Virus record (IMG/VR): IMGVR_UViG_3300017709_000019 | Coordinates: 1-30,973 of that record | DNA length: 30,973 nucleotides | From: a virus | Reading direction: 5' to 3' (one strand) | Shown here: piece after piece, positions 6,756-30,973 of the stretch | Layout of the letters: each line of letters opens with the position of its first letter | Position numbering within the stretch: the stretch's first letter is position 1 | The notes under the pieces: generated by a model | Database searches by the model: none | The model's input: the letters and a program-made list of their open reading frames with translations, nothing else | What the model was told of the DNA's origin: nothing | Translations under genes and position numbers: made by a program

Positions 6756-6764
6756 AAATATATT

Positions 6765-9313: not shown

Positions 9314-11509
9314 ATGAGTACACAGTTTACAAATAGACAATGGCGTTTGCCTAACAATGAGAATAAAGACAAGCAGAGTAACTATTCTATGGACTTTGAT
9401 GGTGGTGTAGGTAGTGCATTAATTAATTTAGGAAATGATAACACTCTAAATATTACAGGTTCTTTAAGTGTTTCTGCTTGGTTTAAAACTTTAAACAATA
9501 CAAGTTCAATAATGATTGCTACTAAGGATTCAGGTACAAATAGAGCTTGGCAGTTATATATGATTAGTACAGGTTGGATAAGATTTGCAATTAATGGAGT
9601 TGCGGCTTATGCTTCAAGTTCTGGAGTATATGATGATGGAAACTGGCATCACGTTGTGGCTTTGTATGAGCCAAGTAATTACGTAAAACTATATATAGAT
9701 GGAGTAGCCGATGGCGAAGATACTTCAAGTGTTCCAGCTTCTATAAATGATTTGCCTTCTCAAGATGTTGTGATAGGAGCTTATAGTGTTTATGATAATG
9801 GCACAAGATGGAATGGGCAAATAGACGGAGTAGCCATTTTTGACTACGCTCTTTCTTCAAGCCAAATAACAACTCTTTATGGTTCAAGCTCTACTGGTAT
9901 AGGTAACCCAATGAGTTTATCTCCAAAGCCAGTTGCTTACTATCCTTTAGGAGACCAAGATGCTTTTAACGGAGCAAATTATTTAGTGCCTAATAGTTCT
10001 TTGAAAGATTATGTTTTTGATTTTGATGCTAATAGTGGAGGTGATTTTATAGATTTAGGAAGTTCTGAAGTTTTATTTAATAGTACATCTGGTTTTTCTT
10101 TTTCTACTTGGTGTAAACTTGAAAACTATAGTGTTGTTTCTTTTCCAGCTTTTTGTAGGTTAAAAACAGACCAAGCGACTGGTTTTATAATAGGATTATC
10201 AGACCTTTCAGGTTATGAAGGTGTATTTATTGGCAGTAATAGTAATTTTTTAACAGCAAGAACTCAAGGAGACATTTCAAGTGATTTTATAGGTGTTTGG
10301 AAGCACGTAGTAGTTACTTTTGATGGTATTAACAGAACAACATTATCAAGTTATAAAATTTATGTAGATGGACAACCTGTTACGCTTACTAATGCTGGCA
10401 CGTTTGGTACAACTTTAAATGATAATAGATTAGGATATGGCAACAGTACAGGTACACCATTCAATGGATTGTTATCTAATTCACAAATATTCAATACAGC
10501 ACTACCAGCAACAGGTTCTAACTCAGTAGAAACTCTTTACAATAATGGTTCTCCACTTACTTCAATGTCAGGATTTACATCTTTACAAGGTTGGTGGAAA
10601 TTAGATGCTTCTGCTACTTATGATGGTTCTAACTGGTCTATCCCTGACTCAAGTTCTAATTCCAATACAGGCACAAGCTCAGGAATGACACAATCGGCAC
10701 TACAGCAATCAGATTTATCTTTCAAAACTTCTTATTCTCCCTTTGCATTAAATTTTGATGGAGCAAATGATTCTATAACTATACCTTCATTTATGAGTAA
10801 TTTACCATCTAATGATATTTACACTATTTCTACTTGGGTTAAAACAGATTCAGACACAAATTGCCTTTGGGGTAGTTCAAGCACTGCAAATCTACTTTAT
10901 GCCTATGTTACAAATGGAACTACACTTGGAATCGGAAGAGGTTCAGTAACAAGAGTTGATATTTCTAATTTATTAACTGTTGGAGAATGGGCAAATGTTG
11001 TAGCGGTTTTTGATTCATCAACTAATTTAAAAATATATATAAATAACGTTTTTATTCAAGATGTTACAGTAGGAAGTTTAGGAACTGTTACTGATGATTT
11101 TAAAATTAGCGGTGGTTTAAACGGTTATCATTTAGCTTGTTCGCAATCAAATGTATCTGTATGGAATACAGCTTTGACATCTGCACAAGTATCAGAAATT
11201 TATAATGAGGGTGTACCATCTAACCTAAATAACCATAGTGCATACTCAAACTTAGTAAGCTGGTGGCAGTTAGGAAGTAATAGCTCTTTCAATACTAACT
11301 GGACTGTATTAGATGAAAAAGGAAGCAATGATGGAACGTCTGTAAATATGACTGAGGCGGACATGGTGGATGGTGTTGGTAGTTATGCTAATGGTTTAAG
11401 TTCTGGAATGGGTGGAGATGAAGTTATAGGAGATGCACCTTACAGCACAGCAAATTCTCTAAGTGTGAATATGGACGTTTTAGACCGCGTAGAGGACACG
11501 CCGTCGTGA
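9314..11509 (+). CDS. Tail fibre / receptor-binding protein with three tandem LamG-like domains
   Basis: 731 aa with three units (about 9380-9890, 10007-10555, 10738-11220). Each starts (N/D/P)(Y/F)..(D/N)FDG/A and ends with a '..(W/F)(N/D)(T/Y)AL(T/S/P)..Q(I/V)..(L/I)Y' signature (DGVAIFDYALSSSQITTLY; SQIFNTALPATGSNSVETLY; VSVWNTALTSAQVSEIY). Confidence 0.7.
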   Translation: MSTQFTNRQWRLPNNENKDKQSNYSMDFDGGVGSALINLGNDNTLNITGSLSVSAWFKTLNNTSSIMIATKDSGTNRAWQLYMISTGWIRFAINGVAAYASSSGVYDDGNWHHVVALYEPSNYVKLYIDGVADGEDTSSVPASINDLPSQDVVIGAYSVYDNGTRWNGQIDGVAIFDYALSSSQITTLYGSSSTGIGNPMSLSPKPVAYYPLGDQDAFNGANYLVPNSSLKDYVFDFDANSGGDFIDLGSSEVLFNSTSGFSFSTWCKLENYSVVSFPAFCRLKTDQATGFIIGLSDLSGYEGVFIGSNSNFLTARTQGDISSDFIGVWKHVVVTFDGINRTTLSSYKIYVDGQPVTLTNAGTFGTTLNDNRLGYGNSTGTPFNGLLSNSQIFNTALPATGSNSVETLYNNGSPLTSMSGFTSLQGWWKLDASATYDGSNWSIPDSSSNSNTGTSSGMTQSALQQSDLSFKTSYSPFALNFDGANDSITIPSFMSNLPSNDIYTISTWVKTDSDTNCLWGSSSTANLLYAYVTNGTTLGIGRGSVTRVDISNLLTVGEWANVVAVFDSSTNLKIYINNVFIQDVTVGSLGTVTDDFKISGGLNGYHLACSQSNVSVWNTALTSAQVSEIYNEGVPSNLNNHSAYSNLVSWWQLGSNSSFNTNWTVLDEKGSNDGTSVNMTEADMVDGVGSYANGLSSGMGGDEVIGDAPYSTANSLSVNMDVLDRVEDTPS

Positions 11510-11534
11510 AGTTAAAATTTTAAAATAAATAAAA

Positions 11535-11786
11535 ATGAATAATAGAAGTTATATAGTAATTAGTTTAAGTTCAACGGATAGCGTGCTATGGTCGCAGGTT
11601 AATCAATCTTCTGCACAAAGTATGAGAAGAAACTTAGCAAACACTCAAGGTTTATTAAGCTATAGTGTTACACCAAGTTTTATAAGTGATGGTTCTGTAG
11701 TACCTGTTGGAGATATTATGAACCAAACAGAAGCACTTGAATTATTAGCAACCTCTGCTTGGAGTGAGCCAATGCCAGAAGAATGA
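11535..11786 (+). CDS. Hypothetical protein
   Basis: 83-aa ORF with an ATGA overlap to the next gene. Confidence 0.5.
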   Translation: MNNRSYIVISLSSTDSVLWSQVNQSSAQSMRRNLANTQGLLSYSVTPSFISDGSVVPVGDIMNQTEALELLATSAWSEPMPEE

Positions 11787-12106
11787 ACAATTTAAAAAGT
11801 GTAAGAATGGATGACCATAATTTATTATTAGCGTTAGCTGGTATTATATCAGCATTTGGAGTAAAAGAAATATGGGCAATTGTAAAGCAGAAGATTGACA
11901 TAGGTGCTAAGAAAGATGAACGCGAAGAAAGTTTATATACTAAACAAATTGAAGTTCTTACTAATAAAATTACACAGCTTGAAACAAAGATTGAATTACT
12001 TATTGAAGAAAATATTCAACTAAGGGTTAAAGTTGTTAAGATGGAAGCACGTTTAATAAATAGTGCTAAAAAAAAAGTAAATAAAAAAAGAGATGAGAAA
12101 GGTTAA
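11783..12106 (+). CDS. Membrane-anchored coiled-coil protein (candidate holin or i-spanin-like lysis protein)
   Basis: One N-terminal TM segment (LLLALAGIISAFGVKEIWAIV), a heptad-like coiled coil, and a basic C-terminus. It overlaps the amidase gene start. Confidence 0.45.
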   Translation: MNNLKSVRMDDHNLLLALAGIISAFGVKEIWAIVKQKIDIGAKKDEREESLYTKQIEVLTNKITQLETKIELLIEENIQLRVKVVKMEARLINSAKKKVNKKRDEKG

Positions 12107-12605
12107 TAAGATTGTAATACATTGTACAGCTACCAAAGAAGGTAACAATGTAAGTCCAGCCACTATAAAAAGATGGCATTTAAACAGAGGTTTTTCAGAT
12201 ATAGGTTATCATTATATCATAGGTATTGAAGGTAAAATAAATGCTGGTAGGCCTGTATCAAAACAAGGTGCTCACGTACGCTCTGGTAATAGTGATAGCA
12301 TCGGAATCTCATATGTTGGTGGCTTAGATTCTAATGGTAAAGCAAAAGATACAAGAACAGAAGCGCAAAAAGCATCATTAATTAAAATACTTAAAGTATT
12401 AAAAAACATTTATCCACAAGCAAGCATTCACGGCCATAGAGACTATTCACCTGACAGAGATGGCGATGGAGTTGAGGAACACGAATTTATGAAAATGTGC
12501 CCTTGTTTTTCAGCAGAAGTAGAATATTTAGAACTACAACCAAAATCTTTTAAACCAAAATCAAAAAAAGCAAAGGATAAATTAAATGGAAAAAAATCAA
12601 ACTAA
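12093..12605 (+). CDS. N-acetylmuramoyl-L-alanine amidase endolysin (Amidase_2 / PGRP / T7-lysozyme type)
   Basis: IVIHCTAT..IKRWHLNRGFSDIGYHYII..GAHV..NSDSIGISYVGG..IHGHRDY..CPCF matches the zinc-amidase signature. Confidence 0.9.
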   Translation: MRKVNKIVIHCTATKEGNNVSPATIKRWHLNRGFSDIGYHYIIGIEGKINAGRPVSKQGAHVRSGNSDSIGISYVGGLDSNGKAKDTRTEAQKASLIKILKVLKNIYPQASIHGHRDYSPDRDGDGVEEHEFMKMCPCFSAEVEYLELQPKSFKPKSKKAKDKLNGKKSN

Positions 12606-12699
12606 CTTAGAGGATTTAATTAAAAGAATGGAAAACTTGCCAGTACCTGAACGTACTTGTAATATAGATGATGAAACTTGTGAAAGCTGTTCTGGATGA
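12586..12699 (+). CDS. Small acidic Cys-containing peptide (37 aa), hypothetical
   Basis: ATG 12586 to TGA 12697-12699. Translation: MEKNQTNLEDLIKRMENLPVPERTCNIDDETCESCSG. ATGA overlap with the downstream holin-like gene. It bridges the gap between the amidase and 12696. Confidence 0.4.
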   Translation: MEKNQTNLEDLIKRMENLPVPERTCNIDDETCESCSG

Positions 12700-13139
12700 A
12701 ACAATTAAAAGATACTAAAATAGGAAAGTTTTTAGCAGAAAAAGCGCCTGATGTTTTAGATGTTGCTGGTGCTTTATTGCCTGATGCTGGTTTATTAGGT
12801 GTAGTTAAAAATTTAATTGACAAAGACCCTAACCTAACACCAGAAGATAAACAACAAATACACGAACAATTAGTTGAATTATATAAGTTAGAAGTAGAAG
12901 ATAGAAACTCAGCAAGACAACGTGAAGTTGAAATGGTTAAAGCTGGTAGTGAAGACTGGATGATGAACTTTACTGGTGTTGTTGGTTTAGGAGGTTTTGT
13001 ATTGTTGTTGGTTGCAATAGTGTTTATACAAGTACCAGAACACAACAAAGAACTAATGATTCACACAACAGGAATTGTTGAAGGAATAGTGCTTTCTATA
13101 GTTGGATATTACTTTGGTAGTATAGCTAAAAAAAAGTAA
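12696..13139 (+). CDS. Holin-like protein (resembles the GTA_holin_3TM family)
   Basis: About 90 aa of soluble N-terminus (LLPDAGLLG..DPNLTPEDKQQIHEQLVELYKLEVEDRNSARQRE), then two clear TM segments (FTGVVGLGGFVLLLVAIVFIQV; GIVEGIVLSIVGYYFGSI) and a KKK tail. Adjacent to the endolysin. Confidence 0.55.
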   Translation: MKQLKDTKIGKFLAEKAPDVLDVAGALLPDAGLLGVVKNLIDKDPNLTPEDKQQIHEQLVELYKLEVEDRNSARQREVEMVKAGSEDWMMNFTGVVGLGGFVLLLVAIVFIQVPEHNKELMIHTTGIVEGIVLSIVGYYFGSIAKKK

Positions 13140-20920: not shown

Positions 20921-21407
20921 TATATTGCACCTCTTGGTAAGAGATGAAGAGACTTGGCTAAGTATGGCTGAGGAAATAAGCAGCAATAGTAAAATACCAG
21001 CAAAAGATTTATTACACGACTTCTACATAGCTTTACATAGTAAAATTGATAGTAAAAAAGTAAAAATTAGCCATATTCTATATAACGATTCTTTAAATAA
21101 AGCGTTTATATATAAGATGATGCGCAATATATTTTTAGACGATTTACGAAAAGATAAAGATATATTAATTGATAAAGACCTAAAAAACATTATAGAAGCA
21201 GACAATACAAAGTATGTAGATATAGAAAAAGTTGTTGATGATATTGTTAATGAATTTTATTGGTTTGATAGAAAGTTATTTAACTTATATAGAAAAAAAT
21301 TCCATAGCATTAGAAAACTATCTGCAGCAACTAACATATCACACGTAGTTGTATGGAGAACTATAAACAATTGTATTAAAGAAATTAAAAAAAAAATTAA
21401 TGACTAG
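20901..21407 (+). CDS. ECF-like sigma-70 family factor (candidate late-gene regulator)
   Basis: Region-2-like AKDLLHDFYIALHSKI ... NKAFIYKMMRNIFLDDLRKDKD. Region-4-like HTH FHSIRKLSAATNISHVVVWRTINNCIKEIKKKI. Confidence 0.55.
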   Translation: MNTEVNNILHLLVRDEETWLSMAEEISSNSKIPAKDLLHDFYIALHSKIDSKKVKISHILYNDSLNKAFIYKMMRNIFLDDLRKDKDILIDKDLKNIIEADNTKYVDIEKVVDDIVNEFYWFDRKLFNLYRKKFHSIRKLSAATNISHVVVWRTINNCIKEIKKKIND

Positions 21408-21833: not shown

Positions 21834-22172
21834 ATGAGCAAAGCAGATTTAATACCATTCAAAAAAGGACAGTCAGGAAATCCTAAAGGTAGACCAAAAG
21901 GTAGTAAGAATAGAAGCACAATTTTAAAAGAAATAGCAGAGCTTAGAACAAAAGGCATACATCCAGTAACTGGTGAAGAAGTATGGATGACTAATGAATA
22001 TAGAATGGCTATGGCTGTTATTGAAAAGGTTATTGAAAAAGGAGACCATCAAGCACTTAATATGGTATTAGATAGTATCTATGGCAAGCAGAAAGATTCT
22101 GTTGATATACATACCTCAGAAGAAGTAAACCACGATTTCAGAAACATCATTGCAAGGATTAAAGCTCAATAA
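21834..22172 (+). CDS. terS: Putative terminase small subunit (DUF5681-like N-terminus)
   Basis: FKKGQSGNPKGRPKGSKNR motif. It lies directly upstream of, and overlaps, terL. Confidence 0.55.
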   Translation: MSKADLIPFKKGQSGNPKGRPKGSKNRSTILKEIAELRTKGIHPVTGEEVWMTNEYRMAMAVIEKVIEKGDHQALNMVLDSIYGKQKDSVDIHTSEEVNHDFRNIIARIKAQ

Positions 22173-23361
22173 AAAATATTTAGTATTAGATGAATCATTT
22201 GCAAGATACTTTATTGTAACTGGTGGTAGAGGCTCAGGTAAATCATTTGCTGTAAACTCGGTACTATTACTATTAACCTATCAAGCTGGACATACAATAT
22301 TATTTACAAGATATACGTTGAGAGCTGCTGGTATTTCAATCATACCTGAGTTCATAGAAAAGTTAGAACTGCTTGGAGTTATTGACAGATTTAAAATAAC
22401 AAAGGATGAAATAATAAATACAGGCAATGGCAGTAAGATAATATTTCGTGGTATTAAAACAAGCTCAGGCGACCAGACAGCAAATCTAAAATCGTTACAA
22501 GGTATAACTACTTGGGTAATGGATGAAGCAGAAGAATTAAATGATGAAGATATATTTGATAAGATTGATTTATCTGTAAGAAATAAAATACAAGAGAATA
22601 GAGTTATACTAATATTAAATCCAACAACTAAAGAACATTTCATTTATAAAAGATGGTTTGAAGATAGAGGTGTTGCTGCTGGTAGTAATATAACTAAAGA
22701 AGATACTACCTATATACACACTACATACTTAGATAACATTGACAACCTTTCAGAAAGCTATATTAAGCAGATAGAGACAATGAAGGTTAGAAGGCCAAAC
22801 AGATACAAGCATACTATAGAAGGTGCTTGGTTAGATAAAGCTGAGGGTGTTATATTTACTGATTGGAGTATAGGAGAATTTAAACAAGTAGGTAAAATTG
22901 TATTTGGCCAAGATTATGGATTTTCTCAGGATGCCTCGACGCTTGTAAAAACAAGCATAGATAAAGAAAATAAAATAATATACATTCAGTTATGTTTCTA
23001 TCAACCTAAGTTAACAACAAGCGAAATAGCAGTATTAAATAAAAAGTTTGCAGCAGATAATTTAATAGTAGGTGATTCAGCAGAACCAAGATTAATAACA
23101 GAACTAAGTAGAGAATGTAATGTTGTGCCAGCAATCAAAGGACAAGGTAGTATAACATTTGGTATTAGTTTATTACAAGATTATGATTTAGTAATAACTG
23201 AAGATAGTACAGAATTAATAAAAGAGTTAAATAACTATTGTTGGTTAGAGAAGAAATCACAAACGCCAGTAGATAATTTTAATCACGCTATTGATGCGTT
23301 GAGATATGCAGTTAGCTATCAATTACAGAATCCAAACTTAGGAGAATATCACATTTATTAA
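22150..23361 (+). CDS. terL: Terminase large subunit
   Basis: Walker A VTGGRGSGKSF, Walker B WVMDEAEE, and a C-terminal nuclease-like segment (FGQDYGFSQDAS .. GDSAEP .. HAIDALRYA). There is no in-frame ATG before the Walker A motif, so the start is probably TTG 22150. Confidence 0.9.
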   Translation: MQGLKLNKKYLVLDESFARYFIVTGGRGSGKSFAVNSVLLLLTYQAGHTILFTRYTLRAAGISIIPEFIEKLELLGVIDRFKITKDEIINTGNGSKIIFRGIKTSSGDQTANLKSLQGITTWVMDEAEELNDEDIFDKIDLSVRNKIQENRVILILNPTTKEHFIYKRWFEDRGVAAGSNITKEDTTYIHTTYLDNIDNLSESYIKQIETMKVRRPNRYKHTIEGAWLDKAEGVIFTDWSIGEFKQVGKIVFGQDYGFSQDASTLVKTSIDKENKIIYIQLCFYQPKLTTSEIAVLNKKFAADNLIVGDSAEPRLITELSRECNVVPAIKGQGSITFGISLLQDYDLVITEDSTELIKELNNYCWLEKKSQTPVDNFNHAIDALRYAVSYQLQNPNLGEYHIY

Positions 23362-23390
23362 AGCCACGCTTAAGCCACCCTTAAGCATTT
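23359..23390 (+). repeat. Three 11-bp phased direct repeats (T)TAAGCCAC / TTAAGCAT, containing the palindrome GCTTAAGC
   Basis: AGCCAC at 23362-23367 and 23373-23378, and AGCAT at 23384-23388. GCTTAAGC at 23368-23375. The array begins at the terL stop codon. Confidence 0.6.
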
Positions 23391-23447
23391 AGATAAGATA
23401 AGAAAAGAAAAGATATATAAGAAAAATAAAAAAAAGTTTAAAAAAGT

Positions 23448-23478
23448 TTTGTAGTTTATAAATATATTTATATATTTG
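23448..23478 (+). promoter_or_regulatory. Bacteroidota-type promoter (TTTG - 19 nt - TATATTTG)
   Basis: TTTG at 23448-23451 and TATATTTG at 23471-23478, with a 19-nt spacer. It lies 28 nt upstream of ATG 23506 and matches the published -33 TTTG / -7 TAnnTTTG consensus. Confidence 0.6.
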
Positions 23479-23505
23479 ACTAATTATTAATTAAAACCAA
23501 AACAA

Positions 23506-23679
23506 ATGAAAACATTTACTAATATCTTCGGAACAAAAATAACACATAAACCATTTTATCAAAGCTCTTTAGATACTTGGAGAATTGCAAGATATGAAAA
23601 CGATAAATTAGATATTGTTTTTGAAGATAAATACTTTCTAAATAAAAAAGATTGTATGGAATTTTTACAAAACAATTAA
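23506..23679 (+). CDS. Stand-alone 57-aa protein (moron-like cassette)
   Basis: ATG 23506 to TAA 23677-23679. Translation: MKTFTNIFGTKITHKPFYQSSLDTWRIARYENDKLDIVFEDKYFLNKKDCMEFLQNN. It has its own promoter and terminator. Confidence 0.5.
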   Translation: MKTFTNIFGTKITHKPFYQSSLDTWRIARYENDKLDIVFEDKYFLNKKDCMEFLQNN

Positions 23680-23729
23680 TTAAAATACCAAGAGGCAGCC
23701 GATTTATTAGCGTAAGTCCTCAGAAATTA

Positions 23730-23759
23730 AAAAGCTACTGTAATAGGTAGCTTTTTTTT
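23730..23759 (+). terminator. Rho-independent terminator
   Basis: AAAAGCTAC (23730-23738), loop TGTAATAG, GTAGCTTTT (23747-23755). The T-run extends to 23759. Confidence 0.8.
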
Positions 23760-23761
23760 AT

Positions 23762-23769
23762 TATATTTG
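23762..23769 (+). promoter_or_regulatory. -7 type promoter box TATATTTG (no clear -33 element)
   Basis: The same octamer as at 23471 and 23879, located immediately after the terminator. Confidence 0.4.
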
Positions 23770-23775
23770 ATTATA

Positions 23776-23880
23776 ATTTAAAAATAACTTTCTGAATACG
23801 TTTAGTAAAGTCTTGATTTAAAATTTATGTTTTGGTTTAAAGTAGGTAGTCGGCACAAGAGCGTTACCTACTTTTTTTTA
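23776..23880 (+). ncRNA. Candidate small RNA: an ORF-less unit between a promoter box and a terminator
   Basis: The TATATTTG box at 23762-23769 is followed by about 100 nt that ends in a strong terminator. The only ORF is a 24-codon one that runs through the terminator stem. Confidence 0.3.
23841..23880 (+). terminator. Rho-independent terminator
   Basis: AGTAGGTA (23841-23848) pairs with TACCTACT (23865-23872) around a 16-nt loop, followed by a T-run to 23879. Confidence 0.8.
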
Positions 23881-23923
23881 TATTTGTATATAACGATTCA
23901 CTAATTTAAACGTTTGTATATAA
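23879..23923 (+). promoter_or_regulatory. Candidate promoter of the virion (late) operon: a TATATTTG box plus two copies of TTTGTATATAA
   Basis: TATATTTG at 23879-23886. TTTGTATATAA at 23883-23893 and 23913-23923. Palindrome AAACGTTT at 23908-23915. Confidence 0.45.
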
Positions 23924-24595
23924 ATGAAACTAACTATTAACATACCAGAAACACTTAATGAAGTTACTTTAAAGCAATACCAAAAGTGGTTAAAGATTGC
24001 TGATGGTAAAGAACTGGATTCGTTTCTACAACAGAAGATGGTAGAAATATTTTGTAATATACCACTTAAGCAAGTATTACAAATAAAAGCTACTGATATC
24101 AACAACATCTGCGAAGAGCTATCAAAGCTATTTAATAACGAACCTAAGTTCATTGATAGGTTTACTTTAAACGATAAAGAGTTTGGATTCATACCAAAGC
24201 TGGATGATATTTCATTTGGTGAATATGTTGATTTAGATACTTACTTAGCTGATTGGGATTTAATGAATAAAGCTATTGGTGTTTTATATAGGCCAATAAC
24301 CTACAAGAAGAAGCAGCAGTATTTAATTGAAGAATATGAAAGTGCTGAAAAATACGATATGACTGAAGTAACTTTAGATATTGTATTTGGTGCTATTGTT
24401 TTTTTTTACAGTTTAAAGAACGAATTACAGAAAACTATCCTGAATTATTTAGCAACTCAGAAGGAGGTAGAGCTTCCTCAGCATCTGCGGGATTCTCTGC
24501 AAAGTGGGGCTGGTATCAATCTATCTACGGACTTACTAATGGAGACATTCTCAAATACAATCAAATTACCAAATCAAAACTACACACCTGTTTAA
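23924..24595 (+). CDS. Tail-assembly-chaperone-like protein, zero-frame product (223 aa)
   Basis: First gene after the regulatory hub. It contains a T9 slippery run at 24399-24407, with an overlapping start-less -1 ORF. Confidence 0.55.
   Translation: MKLTINIPETLNEVTLKQYQKWLKIADGKELDSFLQQKMVEIFCNIPLKQVLQIKATDINNICEELSKLFNNEPKFIDRFTLNDKEFGFIPKLDDISFGEYVDLDTYLADWDLMNKAIGVLYRPITYKKKQQYLIEEYESAEKYDMTEVTLDIVFGAIVFFYSLKNELQKTILNYLATQKEVELPQHLRDSLQSGAGINLSTDLLMETFSNTIKLPNQNYTPV
24399..24407 (+). promoter_or_regulatory. Candidate -1 ribosomal frameshift site (T9; GTT TTT TTT TAC in the zero frame)
   Basis: T TTT TTT fits the X XXY YYZ pattern. The -1 frame is open from 24367 to TGA 24661-24663, and its only ATG is near the end, at 24595. 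Confidence 0.5.
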
Positions 24596-24663
24596 TGCAC
24601 TTAGCATTTGAAAAAGATAAATATGAATTAGAACAACAAATATTAAAAAGAAGCCAACGATGA
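24406..24663 (+). CDS. -1 frame extension of the 23924 gene (fusion product about 246 aa)
   Basis: Translation: LQFKERITENYPELFSNSEGGRASSASAGFSAKWGWYQSIYGLTNGDILKYNQITKSKLHTCLMHLAFEKDKYELEQQILKRSQR. Its TGA overlaps ATG 24660 in the ATGA style used across this genome. Confidence 0.5.
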   Translation, partial: LQFKERITENYPELFSNSEGGRASSASAGFSAKWGWYQSIYGLTNGDILKYNQITKSKLHTCLMHLAFEKDKYELEQQILKRSQR

Positions 24664-24926
24664 CAAAGGATGATATATTAGAAGAATTAACAGAACGCAA
24701 TTTATTAATTGAGAATGAACACATAATTTTAGTTGATGGCTTTGAAGAAGCATTTTTAGGTATTACAGCTAACAATCCAGTACAAGCAATTTATGATTAT
24801 TGGATATGTTTAGATTTATTAATACAAAGAGATAATATGGATTTTGATAATGCGATTGATGACTTAGATGAATTTATTAATCAAGATTTAGGCCAACACA
24901 CACCAAGATATATAAAAGTAGTATGA
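24660..24926 (+). CDS. Small conserved-looking phage protein, unknown function
   Basis: 88 aa with FEEAFLGITANNPVQAIYDYWICLDLLIQRDNMDFDNAIDDLDEFI. Confidence 0.5.
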   Translation: MTKDDILEELTERNLLIENEHIILVDGFEEAFLGITANNPVQAIYDYWICLDLLIQRDNMDFDNAIDDLDEFINQDLGQHTPRYIKVV

Positions 24927-25378
24927 ACAGTTTTTACAATATAATAGATAAAATAAAAGAAGTAATTGTTGCAGAACCATTTAACAATGAAATAACATTT
25001 GGTGATATAGCTGATATTGATTTAAAGAAACAGAGCTTGTTTCCGTTGTCACATGTAATGGTTAACAATAGTACAATAAACAACAATTATATAACATTTA
25101 ATATTACAATCTTCTTTATGGATTTAGTAGATATTAGCAATGAGCAAGTAACAGATTTATATAGAGGTAATGACAACAGGCAAGATATATTAAACACTCA
25201 GTTAGCATTAGCAACAAGAGTAATACGAGTTTTACAAAAGAGTGATTTATACAAAGATAAATTTGAATTAATTAATCCAGCTACTTGTGAACCTTTTACA
25301 GAGCGTTTTGACAATATGCTTTGTGGTTGGGCTGTTACTTTTGATTGTGGTACTAATGATGAAATGACTTACTGCTAA
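24923..25378 (+). CDS. Putative neck / head-tail joining protein
   Basis: 151 aa. The call rests on position and on LFPLSHVMV..ITFNITIFFMD, which recalls DUF3168-type tail-completion proteins. Confidence 0.35.
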   Translation: MNSFYNIIDKIKEVIVAEPFNNEITFGDIADIDLKKQSLFPLSHVMVNNSTINNNYITFNITIFFMDLVDISNEQVTDLYRGNDNRQDILNTQLALATRVIRVLQKSDLYKDKFELINPATCEPFTERFDNMLCGWAVTFDCGTNDEMTYC

Positions 25379-25857
25379 TGAGTGAATTTAAAAAGGCATT
25401 AGAGAAATACGCTAAGTACGTTATACAACAGTCAAGGAGCAACCTAACTAAAAAGAAAAATAACGCTTCTAAGCAACTATATAATAGTTTAGAGTATAAA
25501 ATACAAGGAGATAAAGTTTCGTTTCTTAGCGAGGATTATGGGCAGTTTATAGATAGAGGGGTAAAAGGTTCTAAATCTACATATCCAGAAAGCTCAGCAA
25601 GTCCATTTAAATACACTACTAAACAACCACCAAGTTCAGTATTTGACAAGTGGAGTATTAGAAAGGGTATTGCACCAAGAGATAGTAAAGGTAGGTTTGT
25701 TAATAGGCAATCATTAAATTTCTTAATTGCAAGAAGTATTAAAAACAAAGGTATTAGAGCAACATTATTTTTTACTAAACCATTTGAACGTGGTTTAGAT
25801 TTATACGGAGATGAAATAGTTGCTGGTTATTTAGAAGATAAATTAGATTTACAATGA
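25378..25857 (+). CDS. Putative HK97-gp10-like head-tail adaptor
   Basis: 159 aa with LYNSLEYKIQGDKVSF..DYGQFIDRGVKG..FFTKPFE, resembling the gp10 family pattern. Confidence 0.4.
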   Translation: MSEFKKALEKYAKYVIQQSRSNLTKKKNNASKQLYNSLEYKIQGDKVSFLSEDYGQFIDRGVKGSKSTYPESSASPFKYTTKQPPSSVFDKWSIRKGIAPRDSKGRFVNRQSLNFLIARSIKNKGIRATLFFTKPFERGLDLYGDEIVAGYLEDKLDLQ

Positions 25858-26981
25858 GCACAATAATAAGAACAAGAAGCCCTTTCTTTATAAGAACACC
25901 ACAACAAACAAGTAGCAGTTTAAGTTACTTTCAAATTAACATAACTGTATTTGGTGGTATAGCTACATCATCAGAATTATGTGATGATTTATATGCAGCT
26001 TACTCATTACAGAAAAAACCATTAGGAGCAGAAGATTCTGTTACTGTTGATATAAGTAAAATAGTAAACGACCACATAGAGCAAATATTTACAGGAACTT
26101 ATGCAGCTGCTAAAAGTTCTATTTGGGTAACTGTATCAACTTCTGCAAGAGAATCAGATGGCACATTAATTGGTGTAATATCTTCAAATACTTACTTAGC
26201 TCAAGAAGGGTATAATAAATTTAAAGAAGGTGCTAACTACACAACTGAACCAACTGCTATGGTTAGTAGTACATATATACAATATCATTTAGGTAGTACA
26301 GTAACAATACCTGTTAACGTTGAAAGAGTTACATCTGTTCAATGGCGTTCTGGCACAAGTGTAAGAGAAACAGATAGTTTTTCAGATAATGGTAACCAAA
26401 ACCAAAAGATAGGTTATGCACAATTTACAGGCGGTACATTACTTGATAGTGCTTTAATAATTTATGATAGTGGAAGCACAACTACAATAACTTTAGAACA
26501 AGTAGAAGAATGTAAATTTCCAGTAAATAAAATAACATTTGTGAACAGGTGGGGAGCTTTACAAGATTTATTCTTTTTTAAGAAGTCTACAGAAAGCTTA
26601 GAAGCAACAAGAGAAAATTTTAATGCAAGTATATTTCAAGCAAGAAGTGTAGCACTATCACCACCTCAAACAGGCACAAATTGTGTTGAAACAATTACTT
26701 ATAATAGTTATTCAACAACAGCACATTCTAAGAAAACATTTAATGCTAACGCTACAGAATCAGTTGTTTTAAATACTGGTTTTGTTAACGAATTAATGAA
26801 TCCATATTTTGAAGAGTTAATGGTTAGTGAATACATCTGGCTAACAGATTTAAGTGCTAACATATTTCCAGTTAATTTAAAAGAAAGCTCCTTTGCTAAA
26901 AAAACAGGGTTAAACGATAGGTTAATTAATTACACAATGTCTTTTGATAAATCTTTTGCTTTAGTAAATAATATTAGATAG
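25854..26981 (+). CDS. Virion structural protein (tail component)
   Basis: 375-aa ORF in the tail module with a 4-nt overlap upstream. Confidence 0.45.
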   Translation: MSTIIRTRSPFFIRTPQQTSSSLSYFQINITVFGGIATSSELCDDLYAAYSLQKKPLGAEDSVTVDISKIVNDHIEQIFTGTYAAAKSSIWVTVSTSARESDGTLIGVISSNTYLAQEGYNKFKEGANYTTEPTAMVSSTYIQYHLGSTVTIPVNVERVTSVQWRSGTSVRETDSFSDNGNQNQKIGYAQFTGGTLLDSALIIYDSGSTTTITLEQVEECKFPVNKITFVNRWGALQDLFFFKKSTESLEATRENFNASIFQARSVALSPPQTGTNCVETITYNSYSTTAHSKKTFNANATESVVLNTGFVNELMNPYFEELMVSEYIWLTDLSANIFPVNLKESSFAKKTGLNDRLINYTMSFDKSFALVNNIR

Positions 26982-29242
26982 TGCAAAAAGTTATTCTATA
27001 CATACAGCCACAGTTAAGAAATACAACAACTACACAAGACTTTGTTAGAGTTGATTTAATGGAAGAAGAATTAATTTCATTAACTCAAGTTATTCAAGAT
27101 GTTAGTGATATAGATAAACTGTTTACTGATTACAGTAGAACATTTAATTTACCAGCAAGTAAAACTAATAACAAGATTTTTAAGCATTGGTATAACCCTG
27201 ACATAGAAGGATTTGATGCTAATGTCTTTTGTGAATCAAGAATTGAATTAAACCATTTACATTTTAGGTTTGGTAAAATACAGCTTAATGAAGTTGTAAT
27301 GAAGTTTGGTGAGCCATCAATGTATAAGGTAACATTCTTTGGTAATACAGTAGCTTTTAAAGATAAGATTAATGAAGACCAGCTTAGTGATTTAGTTTGG
27401 TTAAATAATTTTAATCACGATGCAGATGCTGATTATGTAAGAATAGCTTTAGAATATGGCAAAGATTTTACTATTGATTCCGTTGCTTATAACGATGCAA
27501 TTATATATCCGTTAATAGCACATTCACAAAGTTATATTTATGATGATACTGGTAATACTAATAATGGTTTAAATATATCTACACAATCAACACATCATCA
27601 ACAAAGGGGAGTAGTTCCAGAAGATTTAAAACCAGCTATACCAGTAAAGAATATTATTAAAGCAATTGAAGAACAGTATAATATAACTTTTAAAACAAGT
27701 GAGTTTTTAGATTCTGCTGCAATGACTAATTTGTATTTGTGGCTACATAGAGCAAAAGGAAGAATTACTGGAGATTTATTAACTGAATTAAGCAACACAA
27801 CCTTTAACTGTACTTCAAGCACTTCAAACTGTAACCATTATAATGGTGTTCTTTATCCATCTGTTCAATTTAGTAATGGTGATTACATATTTACACAAGC
27901 GTATACAAATGGTTATGAAGAAGGATTTAAATTTACTGCTACAATAACACCAGCTTCAAGCACAATACCTTATTCAATTGAAATAGTAGATAGTTTGACA
28001 GATACTATTGTTGCATCTGCTAATAATTTATTAGGCACTCAAAGCCATTCAATAGGCTATGGTAAATTACAAACTAACACACTATCATTAAATGAGTCTA
28101 AGAGATTATTTGCAAGAGTAAGAAGTGTTGACCCTTTAACATTTTCTGCTGCGCTTTCAATAGAACATTCTTATTTTGATTTAGCTTTAGGAAGGTATGA
28201 TTATAGTTTAACTGCTAATTACACAAGCTCATCTTCAAGTATTGTAACAAGTGCTACAATAATAATTACTGAACAAATACCAGAATTATCAATTAAAGAT
28301 TTTTTAAATGGCTTGTTTAGAGCTTTTAACTTGACTGCTTATGTTGATTTTAATGACCAGATAGTAGTTAAAACTTTAGATAGTTATTATGCCGCTGGTG
28401 ATACTTTTAATATTACAGAGTTTGTTAAAACAGATGAACATACTGTAGGAGAGGCATTGCCATTTTCAAACGTAGATTTAGAATATAGTGAACCTAAAAG
28501 CATACTTGCTCAAACCTTTAGAAGTATGAATAACAGAAGATATGGTGAACTAAACTACATTGGTGATGCAAGCAAGAAGAATGAATACAAAATTACTTTA
28601 CCATTTGAACATATGTTGTATGAAAGATTACAAGATAAAACAAGTAATGCGTTAACGTTAATACAAACTGGTAGTTTTTTAGATGATGATTTAAATCCAA
28701 GTATTGGGCAACCTTTGTTATTTTATGGTATTCAAAGGTCAAGTATTTATGCAAGTGCAATAAATTTTTTAGATAGTACAAGACCAGAAACTTACGGTGC
28801 TTTATGTCCAAATGGAACTAATTACACTTTAAACAACTATTGGATGCCACACAATGCTAATGAATTAGGCACATCAACAACAGCACCAACATACAACTTA
28901 AATTTTGGTAGTGAAATAGATAGTTATCAATTAACAGATTATGGTGGCAATAATAATAGTTTGTTTCAAACGTATTACGAAAATTATATAGTAAGAGTAT
29001 TTAACAAGAAAACAAGGATATTTAAGTTTAACGCAATACTACCACTTAAAGTATTATTAAATCTAACATTAGACGATTTGATTATAGTTGGCACAAGAGC
29101 TTATACAATAAATAAAATGTCTACTAAATTACAAAGTGGAGAAACAAATTTTGAACTATTAAATGAACCAGCAGCACTTGCTACAAGCTCAAGCAGTTCA
29201 GATAGTACAAGTGGTTCAAGCGGTTCAGATTCAGGGGGGTAA
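26981..29242 (+). CDS. Large virion structural protein (tail tip / baseplate-type), GTG start
   Basis: 753 aa. GTG 26981 overlaps the preceding TAG by 1 nt. It has a Ser/Gly-rich C-terminal tail (SSSSSDSTSGSSGSDSGG). Confidence 0.5.
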   Translation: MQKVILYIQPQLRNTTTTQDFVRVDLMEEELISLTQVIQDVSDIDKLFTDYSRTFNLPASKTNNKIFKHWYNPDIEGFDANVFCESRIELNHLHFRFGKIQLNEVVMKFGEPSMYKVTFFGNTVAFKDKINEDQLSDLVWLNNFNHDADADYVRIALEYGKDFTIDSVAYNDAIIYPLIAHSQSYIYDDTGNTNNGLNISTQSTHHQQRGVVPEDLKPAIPVKNIIKAIEEQYNITFKTSEFLDSAAMTNLYLWLHRAKGRITGDLLTELSNTTFNCTSSTSNCNHYNGVLYPSVQFSNGDYIFTQAYTNGYEEGFKFTATITPASSTIPYSIEIVDSLTDTIVASANNLLGTQSHSIGYGKLQTNTLSLNESKRLFARVRSVDPLTFSAALSIEHSYFDLALGRYDYSLTANYTSSSSSIVTSATIIITEQIPELSIKDFLNGLFRAFNLTAYVDFNDQIVVKTLDSYYAAGDTFNITEFVKTDEHTVGEALPFSNVDLEYSEPKSILAQTFRSMNNRRYGELNYIGDASKKNEYKITLPFEHMLYERLQDKTSNALTLIQTGSFLDDDLNPSIGQPLLFYGIQRSSIYASAINFLDSTRPETYGALCPNGTNYTLNNYWMPHNANELGTSTTAPTYNLNFGSEIDSYQLTDYGGNNNSLFQTYYENYIVRVFNKKTRIFKFNAILPLKVLLNLTLDDLIIVGTRAYTINKMSTKLQSGETNFELLNEPAALATSSSSSDSTSGSSGSDSGG

Positions 29243-29244
29243 TT

Positions 29245-29382
29245 ATGAAAACAATATTAGAAGCATTAGAATTTTGTAAAGAGAATAAATTGTATGATAA
29301 ACATATAAATATTGCATTAGGTATTAATAAAGTACCACTAACAATTAAAGAAGGGTTTAACCAATTAAGAATGAAGAAATGA
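29245..29382 (+). CDS. 45-aa hypothetical protein
   Basis: ATG 29245 to TGA 29380-29382. Translation: MKTILEALEFCKENKLYDKHINIALGINKVPLTIKEGFNQLRMKK. ATGA overlap with the tape-measure-like gene. Confidence 0.4.
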   Translation: MKTILEALEFCKENKLYDKHINIALGINKVPLTIKEGFNQLRMKK

Positions 29383-30973
29383 GTAAAGAAGTAATTGTAA
29401 CGGTAAAAGCAGACACAAAAAACGCTCAAACTAACGTAAAAGATTTAAACAAAGATTTAAAAGAAACTAAAGGTGATTTATCTGGTGTTGAGAATTTAGC
29501 AGATAAAGCTACTGGTGGGTTAATTAGCGGTTTTAAGGGTGTTACATCTACTATTGGTGGAGTTGTAAAAGGTTTTAAAACTATGCGAATGGCAATTATT
29601 GCTACAGGTATAGGTGCTTTGGTTATTGCTGTTTCATCATTAATGGCTGCATTTACATCAAGTGAAGAAGGTGCAAATAAGTTTAATAAAATACTTGGTG
29701 TTCTTGGTGCTGTAGTAGATAACTTTATTGATTTACTTGCAGATTTTGGAGAGGCAATAATATCAGCTTTTGAAAACCCAAAAGAAGCTTTAATGTCATT
29801 TGTTAACTTATTAAAAAATCAAGTAGTTAACAGAATTACTGGCTTAATGGAGTTAATACCTCAGCTTGGTAAAGCAGTTCAATTAGTTTTTGAAGGTGAA
29901 TTTTCTGAAGCTGGAAAAGTAGCAACAAACGCAGTTGGCAAAGTAGCATTAGGTGTTGAAGATGTTACTGAAAAAATACAAGCAGCAACACAAGCTACAA
30001 AAGAATTTATTGAAGAAAATATAAAAGATGCTGAAGGAGCAGCAAGGGTTGCTGATATGCGAGCAAAAGCAACTAAACTTGAAAGAGAATTATTGGTTGA
30101 ACGTTCTAAGTTAGAAAGTGAAATTGCAAACTTAAGATTAAAATCAAGACAGGAAGAAGAGTTTGGAGTAGCAGAAAGAAAACAAGCTTTATTAGATGCA
30201 CAAAAATTAGAAGACCAATTATTGCAAAAAGAAACAGAGGTTTTAAAATTAAGAAGAGATGCGCAAGTAGAAGAAAATACTTTTGCAAGAAGTAGTGTAG
30301 AAAATCTTGATAAAGAAGCACAAGCAATAGCAGCAGTTAACAGAATAGCAGCAACAAGGGCTAATCAACAAAGAACTACACAAAGAGAGTTAAACACTCT
30401 TAATAAACAAATACAAGCAGAAAACAAAAGAATTGCTAATGAGAAAAAAGCTCAAGATGATGCAGAATTAAAAAGAAAACAAGAAGCACTTGAAGCAGAT
30501 AGAAAAGCACTTGCAATTAAAAAAGCAGCAGAAGAAAAAGCAGAACAAGAAGAATTAGTTAGAAAAGAACAACAATTTAATTTATTACAAAAACTAACTA
30601 ATACAGCACAAGAGCAAGAGCTTTTTGAATTAGCGCAACAATATGATAAAAAGTTTGAATTAGCTGTTGGTAACGCAGAACTTGAAAAAGCTTTACAAGA
30701 ACAACAACAAAAAGATTTAACAGCTATTGATAAAAAGTATAGTGAGCAAAGAGCTAAAAACGAATCTGATGCAACACAAAAATCACAACAAGAAAGATTA
30801 GATGCTTTTGAACAAGGTGCAAGAACAACAATGAATGCTTTAATTGCTATCAATGAATTAACACAAGCATTTGCAAAAGAAGATGAAGCAAGCCAAAAGA
30901 AAGCATTTGAAGTAAATAAAGCAATAGGAATAGCCAACGCAATAATAAATACTTCTGTTGGTGTTTCTAAAGC
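29379..30973 (+). CDS. Tape-measure-like protein, N-terminal part (runs off the window end; the full gene is 1914 nt, 637 aa, on the circular map)
   Basis: ATG 29379. Hydrophobic segment MRMAIIATGIGALVIAVSSLMAAF, then several hundred residues of E/K/Q/A-rich coiled coil. There is no stop before the window end, and the frame continues into 2..442. Confidence 0.7.
   Translation, partial: MSKEVIVTVKADTKNAQTNVKDLNKDLKETKGDLSGVENLADKATGGLISGFKGVTSTIGGVVKGFKTMRMAIIATGIGALVIAVSSLMAAFTSSEEGANKFNKILGVLGAVVDNFIDLLADFGEAIISAFENPKEALMSFVNLLKNQVVNRITGLMELIPQLGKAVQLVFEGEFSEAGKVATNAVGKVALGVEDVTEKIQAATQATKEFIEENIKDAEGAARVADMRAKATKLERELLVERSKLESEIANLRLKSRQEEEFGVAERKQALLDAQKLEDQLLQKETEVLKLRRDAQVEENTFARSSVENLDKEAQAIAAVNRIAATRANQQRTTQRELNTLNKQIQAENKRIANEKKAQDDAELKRKQEALEADRKALAIKKAAEEKAEQEELVRKEQQFNLLQKLTNTAQEQELFELAQQYDKKFELAVGNAELEKALQEQQQKDLTAIDKKYSEQRAKNESDATQKSQQERLDAFEQGARTTMNALIAINELTQAFAKEDEASQKKAFEVNKAIGIANAIINTSVGVSK
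30851..30973. repeat. Terminal overlap, exact copy of 1..123
   Basis: Direct reading of both window ends. Confidence 0.95.

What the first reader, a model, noticed from the sequence alone, without database searches (positions are those of the whole stretch)
24367..24663. Candidate -1 programmed frameshift on a T9 run in the first virion-operon gene (G/GT-like chaperone pair at a non-canonical position)
Seen in sequence:
- In the zero frame, gene 23924 reads GTT TTT TTT TAC at 24398-24409.
- The -1 frame is open from 24367 to TGA 24661-24663 and has no usable start codon. Its only ATG is at 24595.
- That frame encodes a protein-like sequence (..FSAKWGWYQSIYGLTNGDILKYNQITKSKLHTCLMHLAFEKDKYELEQQIL..).
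- Its stop forms an ATGA overlap with the next gene (24660), which is the coupling style used at many junctions here.
- The zero frame stops at 24595 and leaves a 64-nt gap, which is unusual in this compact genome.

Established knowledge: a conserved -1 frameshift produces the G and GT tail-assembly chaperones in most long-tailed phages, normally directly upstream of the tape measure gene.

Unusual point: the tape-measure-like gene here lies about 4.7 kb downstream (29379), with six genes in between.

Alternative: a one-base undercall in the homopolymer (true T10) would fuse the two frames into a single 246-aa ORF.
Basis: partly seen in the sequence, partly recalled or inferred. Interest (0 to 1): 0.65.

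Follow-up and report, generated by a model that had tools for sequence, protein, structure and literature searches.

The report
Conserved T9 frameshift site in phage gene
A run of nine T's inside a gene of unknown function is kept in hundreds of related marine phages, so that a one-base backward shift there makes a second version of the protein with a different tail end; this is real programmed recoding, not a sequencing error, but the gene is not shown to be a tail-assembly chaperone.

Summary
ORF 23924-24595 reads GTT TTT TTT TAC across a T9 run (24399-24407). The -1 frame is open to TGA 24661-24663, has no usable start, and its stop overlaps the next gene's ATG (ATGA).

Comparative data rule out a T10 undercall. 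In 322 homologous loci (249 unique contexts, N-domain identity down to about 29%, including the isolates Nonlabens phages P12024L and P12024S), the run is always T9 or T10 and never shorter. The conserved C-terminal domain (F[KR]xR..YPELF...KWGWY...FEKDK) always lies in the -1 frame.

Codon-position variation shows the -1 frame is coding from the first codon after the run. The zero-frame tail is also constrained for about 30 codons, so this stretch is dual-coding. No conserved RNA structure follows the site.

The gene therefore makes two isoforms, 223 aa and 246 aa. I favour RNA polymerase slippage on the T9 run (about 0.55) over purely ribosomal -1 slippage on U UUU UUU (about 0.33).

The "G/GT chaperone" label is unproven. 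There is no Pfam or PDB match, only weak tail-related hints, and the gene is not next to the tape-measure gene.

It is an unannotated, very widespread recoding site: a new variant of a known kind.

The parts
23924..24595 (+). Zero-frame ORF giving the short isoform (223 aa): N-terminal alpha/beta domain plus a long helix and tail A. Member of PHROG 32199 (function unknown).
   Evidence: ORF list and translation. phrog_32199 E 1.4e-16. AlphaFold model pLDDT 89.3, pTM 0.79, with helix 151-194 running through the slip site.
24399..24407 (+). T9 slip site (zero frame G-TT TTT TTT T-AC), containing the heptamer U UUU UUU. It is the only T run of 9 or more in the window.
   Evidence: A run of at least 9 T is conserved at the homologous site in 322 of 322 loci.
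24406..24663 (+). -1 frame extension (tail B, 85 codons, TTA 24406-24408 to TGA 24661-24663). It encodes LQFKERITENYPELF, a Gly/Ser linker, then KWGWYQSIYGL..GD..T..LH.CL..LAFEKDK. Read after the shift, it gives the long isoform (246 aa).
   Evidence: Conserved from the first codon after the run, with a coding pattern of variation. No start codon before ATG 24595.
24407..24595 (+). Zero-frame tail A (62 codons, YSLKNELQKTILNYLATQKEVELPQHLRDSLQSGAGI...), overlapping tail B. Roughly the first 30 codons are dual-coding.
   Evidence: The zero frame stays open 46-91 codons in most lineages of the family, though only 16-29 in the P12024 clade. Synonymous shuffles of the -1 frame give p 0.003-0.08 in most lineages tested. 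Tail A identity exceeds the +1-frame control. Codon-position entropies. Shared tail motif in representatives at or below 50% identity.
24660..24926 (+). Downstream 88-aa gene. Its ATG overlaps the stop of the -1 frame extension (ATGA), so it may be translationally coupled to the long isoform.
   Evidence: The ATGA junction is present in most homologous loci.

Best explanation
Gene 23924 carries a conserved programmed -1 recoding site on its T9 run and yields two proteins with the same 161-residue N-terminal part.

- The short isoform (223 aa) comes from standard decoding. It continues the long helix into tail A.
- The long isoform (246 aa) has a reading frame that moves back one base at the run. 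It then reads Leu-Gln-Phe-Lys-Glu-Arg..., a flexible Gly/Ser linker and a ~55-aa KWGWY...FEKDK domain. It ends on the ATGA that starts the next gene.

Probability that such recoding of either kind is real and functional: about 0.9.

The mechanism I think most likely, and the one the confidence value refers to, is RNA polymerase slippage. On the A9 template the nascent U-tract realigns, so a fraction of mRNAs carry U10. Ordinary ribosomes then read these straight into tail B. Ribosomal -1 tandem slippage on U UUU UUU may add to the yield.

Shown: the anatomy, the conservation, the coding status of both tails and the absence of a stimulatory RNA structure.

Inferred: that the shift occurs, which polymerase or ribosome step makes it, the ratio of the isoforms, and the protein's role. 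The role is probably virion assembly, because the gene opens the block of small morphogenesis genes between the large terminase and the tape-measure-like gene.
For: 1. Run and frame conservation. There are 322 loci, 249 unique contexts, and 115/65/25 clusters at 90/70/50% N-domain identity. All have T9 (300 loci) or T10 (22 loci), with tail B in the -1 frame. These include the isolate genomes P12024L and P12024S, where the two parts are annotated as separate genes gp40/gp41.
2. The synonymous sites inside the run never vary, and it never drops below 9. The Phe codons are never TTC, and the codon before them always ends in T.
3. Selection in the -1 frame starts at the first codon after the run. 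TTA and TTG are synonymous there, while the zero frame changes among Y, W and C. Entropy by -1 frame codon position is 0.72/0.34/0.70 over the first 16 codons and 0.51/0.40/1.07 over the KWGWY region.
4. There is no start codon for tail B in the window.
5. Length rather than codon phase is kept. T9 occurs in all three phases relative to the zero frame (L099 and L307 in phase 0; L098 and L226 in phase 2). Several lineages have T10 that arose by substitution or by a one-codon insertion, and these still need -1. A heptamer alone would need only T7.
6. Nine A or T is the length at which transcriptional slippage becomes evident in many bacteria and is used for expression (PMC1088944; Shigella spa13 in PMC5009743).
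7. There is no conserved downstream RNA structure. RNAalifold gives -0.64 kcal/mol with 0 compensatory pairs, and the window fold has z -0.09.
8. Contigs with the frames fused by a T10 exist but are rare, and one of the three examined is a long-read assembly with other broken genes.
Against: - There is no RNA or protein data, so the shift itself is inferred.
- The first and ninth T could be held by coding alone. T1 is the second base of a Val/Leu/Ile codon. Changing T9 to A gives a stop in the -1 frame, as does changing it to G when the following base is A (TGG Trp otherwise); C gives Ser. T9 therefore does not prove selection on length.
- Any T9 contains a correctly phased U UUU UUU heptamer, so every observation also fits ribosomal slippage. 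Lambda G/GT also works without a stimulatory structure.
- Some AT-rich bacteria appear to tolerate 9-mers, possibly because their RNA polymerase slips less (PMC1088944). The host here is probably an AT-rich flavobacterium.
- The function of both isoforms is unknown.
Confidence: 0.55

Rival explanations
1. Purely ribosomal -1 programmed frameshifting. The mRNA keeps U9. Ribosomes with tRNA-Phe in the P and A sites on UUU UUU slip back one base on U UUU UUU and continue in the -1 frame, as in lambda G/GT or P2 E/E'.
For: A perfect X XXY YYZ heptamer lies in the right phase in the window and in every phase variant, because T9 contains one in any phase. Phage chaperone frameshifts commonly need only a few per cent efficiency and no stimulator (PMC5009743; PMC3711429 reports 6-7%). 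The T1 and T9 positions can be explained by coding constraints.
Against: Only 7 T are needed, yet no lineage among 322 loci has fewer than 9, in three different phases and in the T10 variants. No conserved stimulatory structure was found. Runs of 9 T are known to make RNA polymerase slip in the bacteria tested, so some U10 mRNA is expected anyway.
Confidence: 0.33
2. Sequencing or assembly undercall. The true sequence is T10 and the gene is one plain 246-aa ORF.
For: T10 would fuse the frames. A few database contigs do carry T10 with fused frames (L083, L084, L085; L225).
Against: 300 of 322 independent loci from many samples and two isolate genomes have T9. 20 T10 loci belong to lineages where -1 is still required. 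The zero-frame tail stays open and is conserved. Fused clusters are tiny (1-5 members), against hundreds of members for the T9 forms. L085 and the MAG contigs L222/L225 show other frame breaks typical of long-read errors.
Confidence: 0.01
3. Two separate genes. Tail B is made as an independent small protein by internal initiation or termination-reinitiation. This is how P12024 gp41 is annotated, and how gene callers treat lineages where the run is followed by G (TTG).
For: P12024L gp41 is annotated from an ATG that overlaps the gp40 stop (TAATG). The window has the same TAATG at 24593-24597. Gene finders-127-aa ORFs for tail B in 29 database clusters.
Against: In the window the -1 frame has no ATG, GTG or TTG before 24595, which would leave a 22-aa peptide lacking all conserved motifs. 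The position of the first ATG varies, and it is absent in several lineages. Conservation and the coding signature begin at the first codon after the run. About half the lineages have TTA rather than TTG after the run.
Confidence: 0.03
4. DNA-level phase variation. Replication slippage switches genomes between T9 and T10, and the population rather than each infection supplies the two isoforms.
For: Homopolymers of 9-10 are hypermutable, and rare T10 contigs exist.
Against: T10 fused forms are about 1% or less of observations and are partly attributable to assembly error. Both isoforms being conserved implies both are needed within one infection, which a rare genomic variant cannot supply. The T10 lineages keep the -1 requirement.
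Confidence: 0.04

Closest known systems
Lambda gpG/gpGT (and P2 E/E') tail assembly chaperones made by -1 frameshifting
   Same: A phage morphogenesis-region gene with two products that share an N-terminus. The longer one is made by a -1 shift on a slippery run without an obvious stimulator. The extra domain is attached through a linker. P2 also slips on a T-rich heptamer (my own knowledge; lambda is described in PMC5009743).
   Different: Not adjacent to the tape-measure gene: six genes and 4.7 kb lie between them. No sequence match to any chaperone family, and only sub-threshold structural similarity. The proteins are larger (223 and 246 aa). The zero frame continues about 60 codons past the site and is itself conserved, so the two isoforms have alternative C-termini rather than a short form and an extended form. 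The slip site is a strict T>=9 homopolymer.
Transcriptional slippage on 9T/9A runs: Shigella mxiE and spa13, Thermus dnaX, IS-element orfA-orfB fusions
   Same: A run of nine T or A in the sense strand at the junction of two overlapping frames. Insertion of one base in the mRNA joins them, and no RNA structure is required. In spa13 the extension's end overlaps the start of the next gene and affects its expression (PMC5009743; PMC1088944). This resembles the ATGA junction here.
   Different: Those cases are cellular or mobile-element genes with mRNA heterogeneity shown experimentally. Here nothing has been measured. The setting is a tailed-phage virion-module gene family, and the overlap is dual-coding.
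Structural-protein isoforms by frameshifting in phages (T7 10A/10B; Lactobacillus phage A2 head protein)
   Same: Two C-terminal variants of one virion-related protein arise from a -1 shift late in the gene (A2 is cited in PMC10274946; T7 is from my own knowledge).
   Different: Those are capsid proteins with known folds. This protein has no recognised fold, and it is not known whether it is present in the virion.

Membership tests
G/GT-type tail assembly chaperone | Two products sharing an N-terminus through a conserved -1 shift at a slippery sequence | tested here: met
   The frame arrangement and slip run are conserved in 322 of 322 loci. The products themselves were not observed.
G/GT-type tail assembly chaperone | Gene pair located between the major tail protein gene and the tape-measure gene, directly upstream of the latter | tested here: not met
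   The gene follows the large terminase (22150-23361). ORFs of 88, 151, 159, 375, 753 and 45 aa lie between it and the tape-measure-like ORF at 29379. P12024L has the same order.
G/GT-type tail assembly chaperone | Sequence or structural homology to a recognised chaperone family | tested here: inconclusive
   Pfam and NCBIfam give nothing. The PDB profile and fold searches give nothing. In BFVD, chaperone-labelled hits appear only at E 0.07-0.47 with TM about 0.3. In PHROGs, 1 of 120 members hits a chaperone family at E 0.014, and 8 of 120 hit phrog_166 'tail protein' at best E 8e-5.
G/GT-type tail assembly chaperone | Binds the tape-measure and tail-tube proteins, is absent from the virion, and has a fixed low long:short ratio | not testable with these tools
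   Needs biochemistry and proteomics.
Programmed transcriptional slippage at 9A/9T | Homopolymer of at least about 9 A or T in the sense strand at the frame junction, with its length conserved | tested here: met
   T9 in 300 loci and T10 in 22, never shorter. T9 is found in all three codon phases.
Programmed transcriptional slippage at 9A/9T | mRNA population heterogeneous in run length (U10 present) | not testable with these tools
   No transcript data. The origin of the T10 Logan contig (SRR19888832) could not be determined.
-1 programmed ribosomal frameshifting | X XXY YYZ heptamer in the zero-frame phase | tested here: met
   U UUU UUU at 24400-24406.
-1 programmed ribosomal frameshifting | Stimulatory element: a downstream stem-loop or pseudoknot (an upstream SD-like stimulator was not scanned for with a tool; read by eye only) | tested here: not met
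   RNAalifold on 31 diverse loci gives -0.64 kcal/mol with no covariation. The single-sequence fold has z -0.09. This feature is not obligatory for the family.
PHROG 32199 (function unknown) | Significant match to the family profile | tested here: met
   E 1.4e-16 over residues 1-174. 120 of 120 diverse members match.

The most novel reading that the evidence does not exclude
A very large family of marine and freshwater tailed phages (2,894 clusters at 50% identity) uses host RNA polymerase slippage on a strictly maintained T9/T10 run as its normal way of making a second isoform. The two alternative C-termini are written in overlapping frames for about 30-60 codons. The protein has a fold with no solved relative and is not a canonical tail assembly chaperone. 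This would be a conserved, obligate use of transcriptional recoding in virion morphogenesis of dsDNA phages.
Probability: 0.4. Interest if true: 0.72.

Novelty: new variant of a known kind. Interest (0 to 1): 0.6.

Why it matters
- **Annotation.** The site is unannotated. In the two isolate genomes the halves are filed as separate hypothetical genes, and in thousands of metagenomic contigs tail B is not called at all. A whole conserved protein domain is therefore missing from phage protein catalogues.
- **Scale.** The family is large: 4,597 clusters at 90% identity and 2,894 at 50%. This is one of the more widespread recoding sites outside the classical G/GT pair.
- **Mechanism.** It offers a clean natural test of transcriptional against ribosomal slippage. 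The run is a pure T9 with no stimulator, and a cultured phage-host pair exists.
- **Biology.** If transcriptional, it would show that tailed phages exploit host RNA polymerase infidelity to set the stoichiometry of morphogenesis proteins. The interleaved dual-coding overlap is a compact example of how two alternative C-termini can share DNA.

Tried and rejected
- blastn of the region against GenBank phages found no match. Only tblastn found the P12024 phages.
- The AlphaFold model of the fused isoform, built from a 7-sequence alignment, had pLDDT 47 and was not used for fold search.
- The PDB profile search, the Foldseek PDB search, Pfam on single proteins and on 120 members and NCBIfam gave nothing.
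- PDB sequence searches for the neighbouring 151-, 159-, 375- and 753-aa proteins gave nothing.
- The search of species-representative genomes found only five MAG-binned phage contigs (Parvibaculum, Flavobacteriales, Fonsibacter bins). It found no prophage in an isolate, so there is no reliable host.
- I tried to learn whether T10 contigs come from metatranscriptomes. The cluster look-up returned no accessions, so this was dropped.
- I considered whether the T9 run is part of an intrinsic terminator. No terminator-like site was found there.
- Tail B searched alone gave only 29 short ORF calls, with no other domain partners and no names.
- Literature searches for a prior description found none. 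The term sets were tail assembly chaperone with transcriptional slippage, programmed frameshift with flavobacteri*, and P12024.
- The meaning of phrog_166 could not be traced.

Full report
**1. The observation**

- ORF 23924-24595 (223 aa) reads GTT TTT TTT TAC at 24398-24409, with a T9 run at 24399-24407.
- The -1 frame is open from 24367 to TGA 24661-24663. It contains no ATG, GTG or TTG before ATG 24595.
- Its stop overlaps the ATG of the next gene (ATGA at 24660-24663).
- The zero frame ends at TAA 24593-24595, 64 nt before that gene.
- A -1 slip on the run and a tenth T give the same 246-aa protein.
- It is the only T run of 9 or more in the window.
- One such run in a 31% G+C window is not remarkable. 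A/T 9-mers on both strands number 5, against 10.4 +/- 4.9 in shuffles.

**2. Relatives**

DNA search against GenBank phages found nothing. tblastn with the fused protein hit Nonlabens (Persicivirga) phages P12024L and P12024S at about 31% identity, in two pieces.
- In those phages the gene also follows the large terminase.
- It is annotated as two hypothetical genes: gp40 (175 aa) and gp41 (55 aa, in the -1 frame).
- Their sequence has a T9 run at the homologous codons (CTT TTT TTT TAT).
- The -1 frame reads LSFRERLRDLYPELY...FSLKWGWY, matching LQFKERITENYPELF...FSAKWGWY in the window.

The protein database holds 4,597 clusters (90% identity) that match the query. Most are 223 aa and match only up to the run. 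A minority of 245-247 aa match throughout.

An exhaustive profile search found 2,894 clusters at 50% identity. Of the 148 best representatives, 129 are zero-frame forms and 19 contain the tail B motif.

**3. Census of the slip site**

I fetched DNA for homologues from IMG/VR with seven different queries, from a few contigs carrying fused proteins and from MAGs.

The census covers 322 loci, with 249 unique 129-nt contexts. These fall into 115, 65 and 25 clusters at 90, 70 and 50% N-domain identity.

| Run | Phase or frame relation | Loci |
|---|---|---|
| T9 | canonical phase (xTT TTT TTT Trn) | 296 |
| T9 | phase 0 (TTT TTT TTT cnn; L099, L307) | 2 |
| T9 | phase 2 (ggT TTT TTT TTg; L098, L226) | 2 |
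| T10 | C-terminal domain still needs a -1 shift | 20 |
| T10 | frames fused (L083, L084, fetched because their proteins were fused) | 2 |

- The 20 T10 loci that still need -1 arose either by a substitution after the run or by a one-codon insertion.
- No locus has fewer than nine T.
- Tail B lies in the -1 frame in every non-fused locus.
- A third fused contig, L085, also has T10 but is a pilon-polished long-read assembly with other broken genes, and the census script made no call for it.
- Two T10 contigs from one long-read MAG disagree with each other in frame.
- A few database proteins are fused through other indels: P0002, P0003, P0008 and P0123-P0125.
- All of these are singletons or tiny clusters, against clusters of up to 566 members for the T9 form.

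The undercall hypothesis is therefore excluded.

**4. Which frames are coding**

Right after the run, the -1 codon is TTA or TTG (both Leu), while the zero-frame residue changes among Tyr, Trp and Cys.

Codon-position entropy, given as positions 1/2/3:

| Region | Entropy | Source |
|---|---|---|
| N-domain | 0.68/0.43/1.16 | |
| Tail B codons 1-16, -1 frame | 0.64/0.33/0.68 | |
| Tail B codons 16-30 | 1.16/0.94/0.84 | |
| Tail B codons 30-46 (KWGWY region) | 0.51/0.40/1.07 | |
| Tail B codons 46-62 | 0.88/0.50/1.34 | |
| Tail B beyond the overlap | 0.75/0.49/0.99 | |

- In codons 1-16 the third position is suppressed.
- In codons 16-30 the least variable position is the zero frame's second position.
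- So tail B is coding from its first codon. For roughly the first 30 codons the zero frame is constrained as well.

Further support for a real tail A:
- The zero frame stays open 46-91 codons after the run in most lineages of the family, though only 16-29 in the P12024 clade.
- This is longer than in synonymous shuffles of the -1 frame. p is 0.003-0.08 in most lineages tested and 0.14 in P12024L.
- Tail A identity to the window lies between that of tail B and that of a +1-frame control.
- Representatives at or below 50% identity share a tail A pattern, FF[YW]xL[GS]x[ED]L...YL...NGDG...L.E.L..L, with L164, L168 and G197 conserved in at least 90%.
- Part of this is hitch-hiking. The G-x-G of tail A overlaps the TGG GGN TGG of WGW in tail B (read from the sequence).

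The AlphaFold model of the short isoform is confident (pLDDT 89.3, pTM 0.79). It shows an alpha/beta domain followed by a helix, residues 151-194, that runs through the slip site. Both isoforms therefore look functional.

**5. Mechanism**

There is no conserved RNA structure downstream.
- RNAalifold on 31 diverse loci gives -0.64 kcal/mol with no compensatory pair.
- The window sequence folds no better than shuffles.
- The run is not part of a terminator-like site.

Both routes give the same protein.

*For ribosomal slippage:*
- A perfectly phased U UUU UUU heptamer is present.
- Phage chaperone frameshifts work at a few per cent without stimulators.

*For RNA polymerase slippage:*
- The run is held at 9 or more in three codon phases and in the T10 variants, although seven T would suffice for the ribosome.
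- The -1 residue after the run can be Leu, Phe or Ser in different lineages, yet the Ser-giving T9-to-C change never appears in the canonical phase.
- Nine A or T is the length at which transcriptional slippage becomes evident in many bacteria, and it is exploited by IS elements, Thermus dnaX and Shigella type III genes.

*Caveats:*
- T1 and T9 can be explained by coding constraints.
- Some AT-rich bacteria seem to tolerate 9-mers.

I put transcriptional slippage as the main route at about 0.55 and purely ribosomal slippage at about 0.33. Recoding of either kind stands at about 0.9.

Independent initiation of tail B is unlikely.
- The window has no start codon before 24595.
- The first ATG varies in position or is absent among lineages.
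- About half the lineages have TTA rather than TTG after the run.

The conserved ATGA junction suggests that the next gene is coupled to translation of tail B. This recalls spa13/spa32.

**6. What the protein is**

The gene belongs to PHROG 32199, of unknown function.
- There is no Pfam, NCBIfam or PDB match.
- Foldseek against predicted viral structures gives 37 hits at E < 1e-3, all uncharacterised. They include P12024S gp38 and a protein of Flavobacterium phage 6H.
- Proteins labelled as tail assembly or tape-measure chaperones appear only at E 0.07-0.47.
- 8 of 120 family members also touch phrog_166 'tail protein' (best E 8e-5). One touches a chaperone PHROG at E 0.014.
- Tail B has no other domain partners.

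Context:
- A candidate small terminase (21834) and the large terminase (22150) lie upstream.
- Terminator-like hairpins precede the gene.
- Downstream are ORFs of 88, 151, 159, 375, 753 and 45 aa, all in PHROGs of unknown function.
- A coiled-coil ORF with hydrophobic Gly-rich segments follows. It looks like a tape measure and runs off the window.
- Head genes (XkdF-type protease, capsid-like protein, portal) and Laminin_G fibre-like proteins lie at the window start.

A role in virion, probably tail, assembly is plausible. Membership in the G/GT family is not shown, and its positional criterion is not met.

**7. Novelty**

I found no description of this site. The isolate genomes annotate the halves separately.

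The kind of element is known: a phage gene giving two isoforms by a -1 shift, or a 9T transcriptional slippage site.

The new aspects are the gene family, the strict homopolymer, the dual-coding alternative C-termini, the non-canonical position and the very wide distribution.

Verdict: real, conserved programmed recoding, and a new variant of a known kind. Interest 0.6.

Noticed in passing
L001 6001-6695 (P12024L gp40/gp41); L002 same coordinates (P12024S gp38/gp39): The isolate genomes annotate the two halves as separate hypothetical genes. gp41 starts at an ATG that overlaps the gp40 stop (TAATG). The -1 frame is conserved from the T9 run 28 codons upstream of that ATG, so the record probably needs a joined CDS.
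   Followed up: yes
L220 (Flavobacterium phage 6H) 10047-10927, minus strand: The remote homologue gp10 (191 aa, Foldseek E 5e-5) ends four codons after CFFY and has only T6 (TGT TTT TTC TAT). The unannotated 305-nt gap downstream holds a -1 frame ORF ending in a tail-B-like sequence (..KYPGLGMKG...TPLWEILIRMYDITKRSLDEE..). That ORF is separated from the run by a TAG stop and about 35 hydrophobic codons. How, or whether, it is expressed is unclear.
   Followed up: partly
window 1815-1823, 12068-12076, 21387-21396 (also A8 at 13128, 19818, 23428): The long A runs (A9, A9, A10) all sit in intergenic DNA or in the last few codons of a gene, just upstream of the next start codon. None is deep inside a gene. 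This fits A-rich initiation regions of Bacteroidota-type translation and avoidance of slippery runs inside coding sequence. The T9 run is the only long homopolymer far from a gene end.
   Followed up: partly
window 23729-23775 and 23841-23893: Between the terminase and gene 23924 there are two copies of a module: hairpin, T8, then ATATTTGTATATAA. The first hairpin is scored terminator-like. Each T8 run merges into TATATTTG, which matches the Bacteroidota -7 promoter motif TAnnTTTG. The motif is not enriched in the window overall (43 matches against 59 expected). This suggests the gene starts its own late transcription unit.
   Followed up: partly
proteins P0002, P0003, P0008, P0123-P0125, P0127, P0154, P0233: Rare database proteins join the N-domain to tail B in other ways. 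Some switch frame 15-30 codons after the run, one has an extra G before the run (GGG TTTTTTTTT), some read FFF[TV][QE]F, and P0154 reads GFFDYRKSVNKRYPELF with apparently no long T run. These could be assembly errors or natural in-frame fusions. Their DNA could not be fetched.
   Followed up: partly
window 1-13000 versus 21834-30973: The gene order is unusual. Terminase, the recoded gene, small unknown genes, the 375- and 753-aa proteins and the tape-measure-like ORF lie at the window's end. The protease, capsid-like protein, portal and two Laminin_G fibre-like proteins lie at its start, with the portal after the capsid gene. P12024L has the same layout.
   Followed up: partly
window 21834-22172: A 112-aa ORF overlaps the start of the large terminase and carries GNPKGRPKGSKN near its N-terminus. 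It is a likely small terminase subunit.
   Followed up: no
L221, L223, L224 (MAG contigs): Phage contigs carrying this gene are binned into MAGs named Parvibaculum sp. and Candidatus Fonsibacter lacus (freshwater SAR11). These are probably binning artefacts, but the family clearly extends to freshwater.
   Followed up: no
window 24407-24415 and homologous positions in the 81 loci of the window clade and P12024: The conserved TTTAA/TTTAG after the run gives Phe-Lys/Arg in the -1 frame and x-Leu in the zero frame. It also places a stop two codons into the +1 frame in each of those loci. An mRNA with one U too few (U8) would therefore end almost at once.
   Followed up: partly
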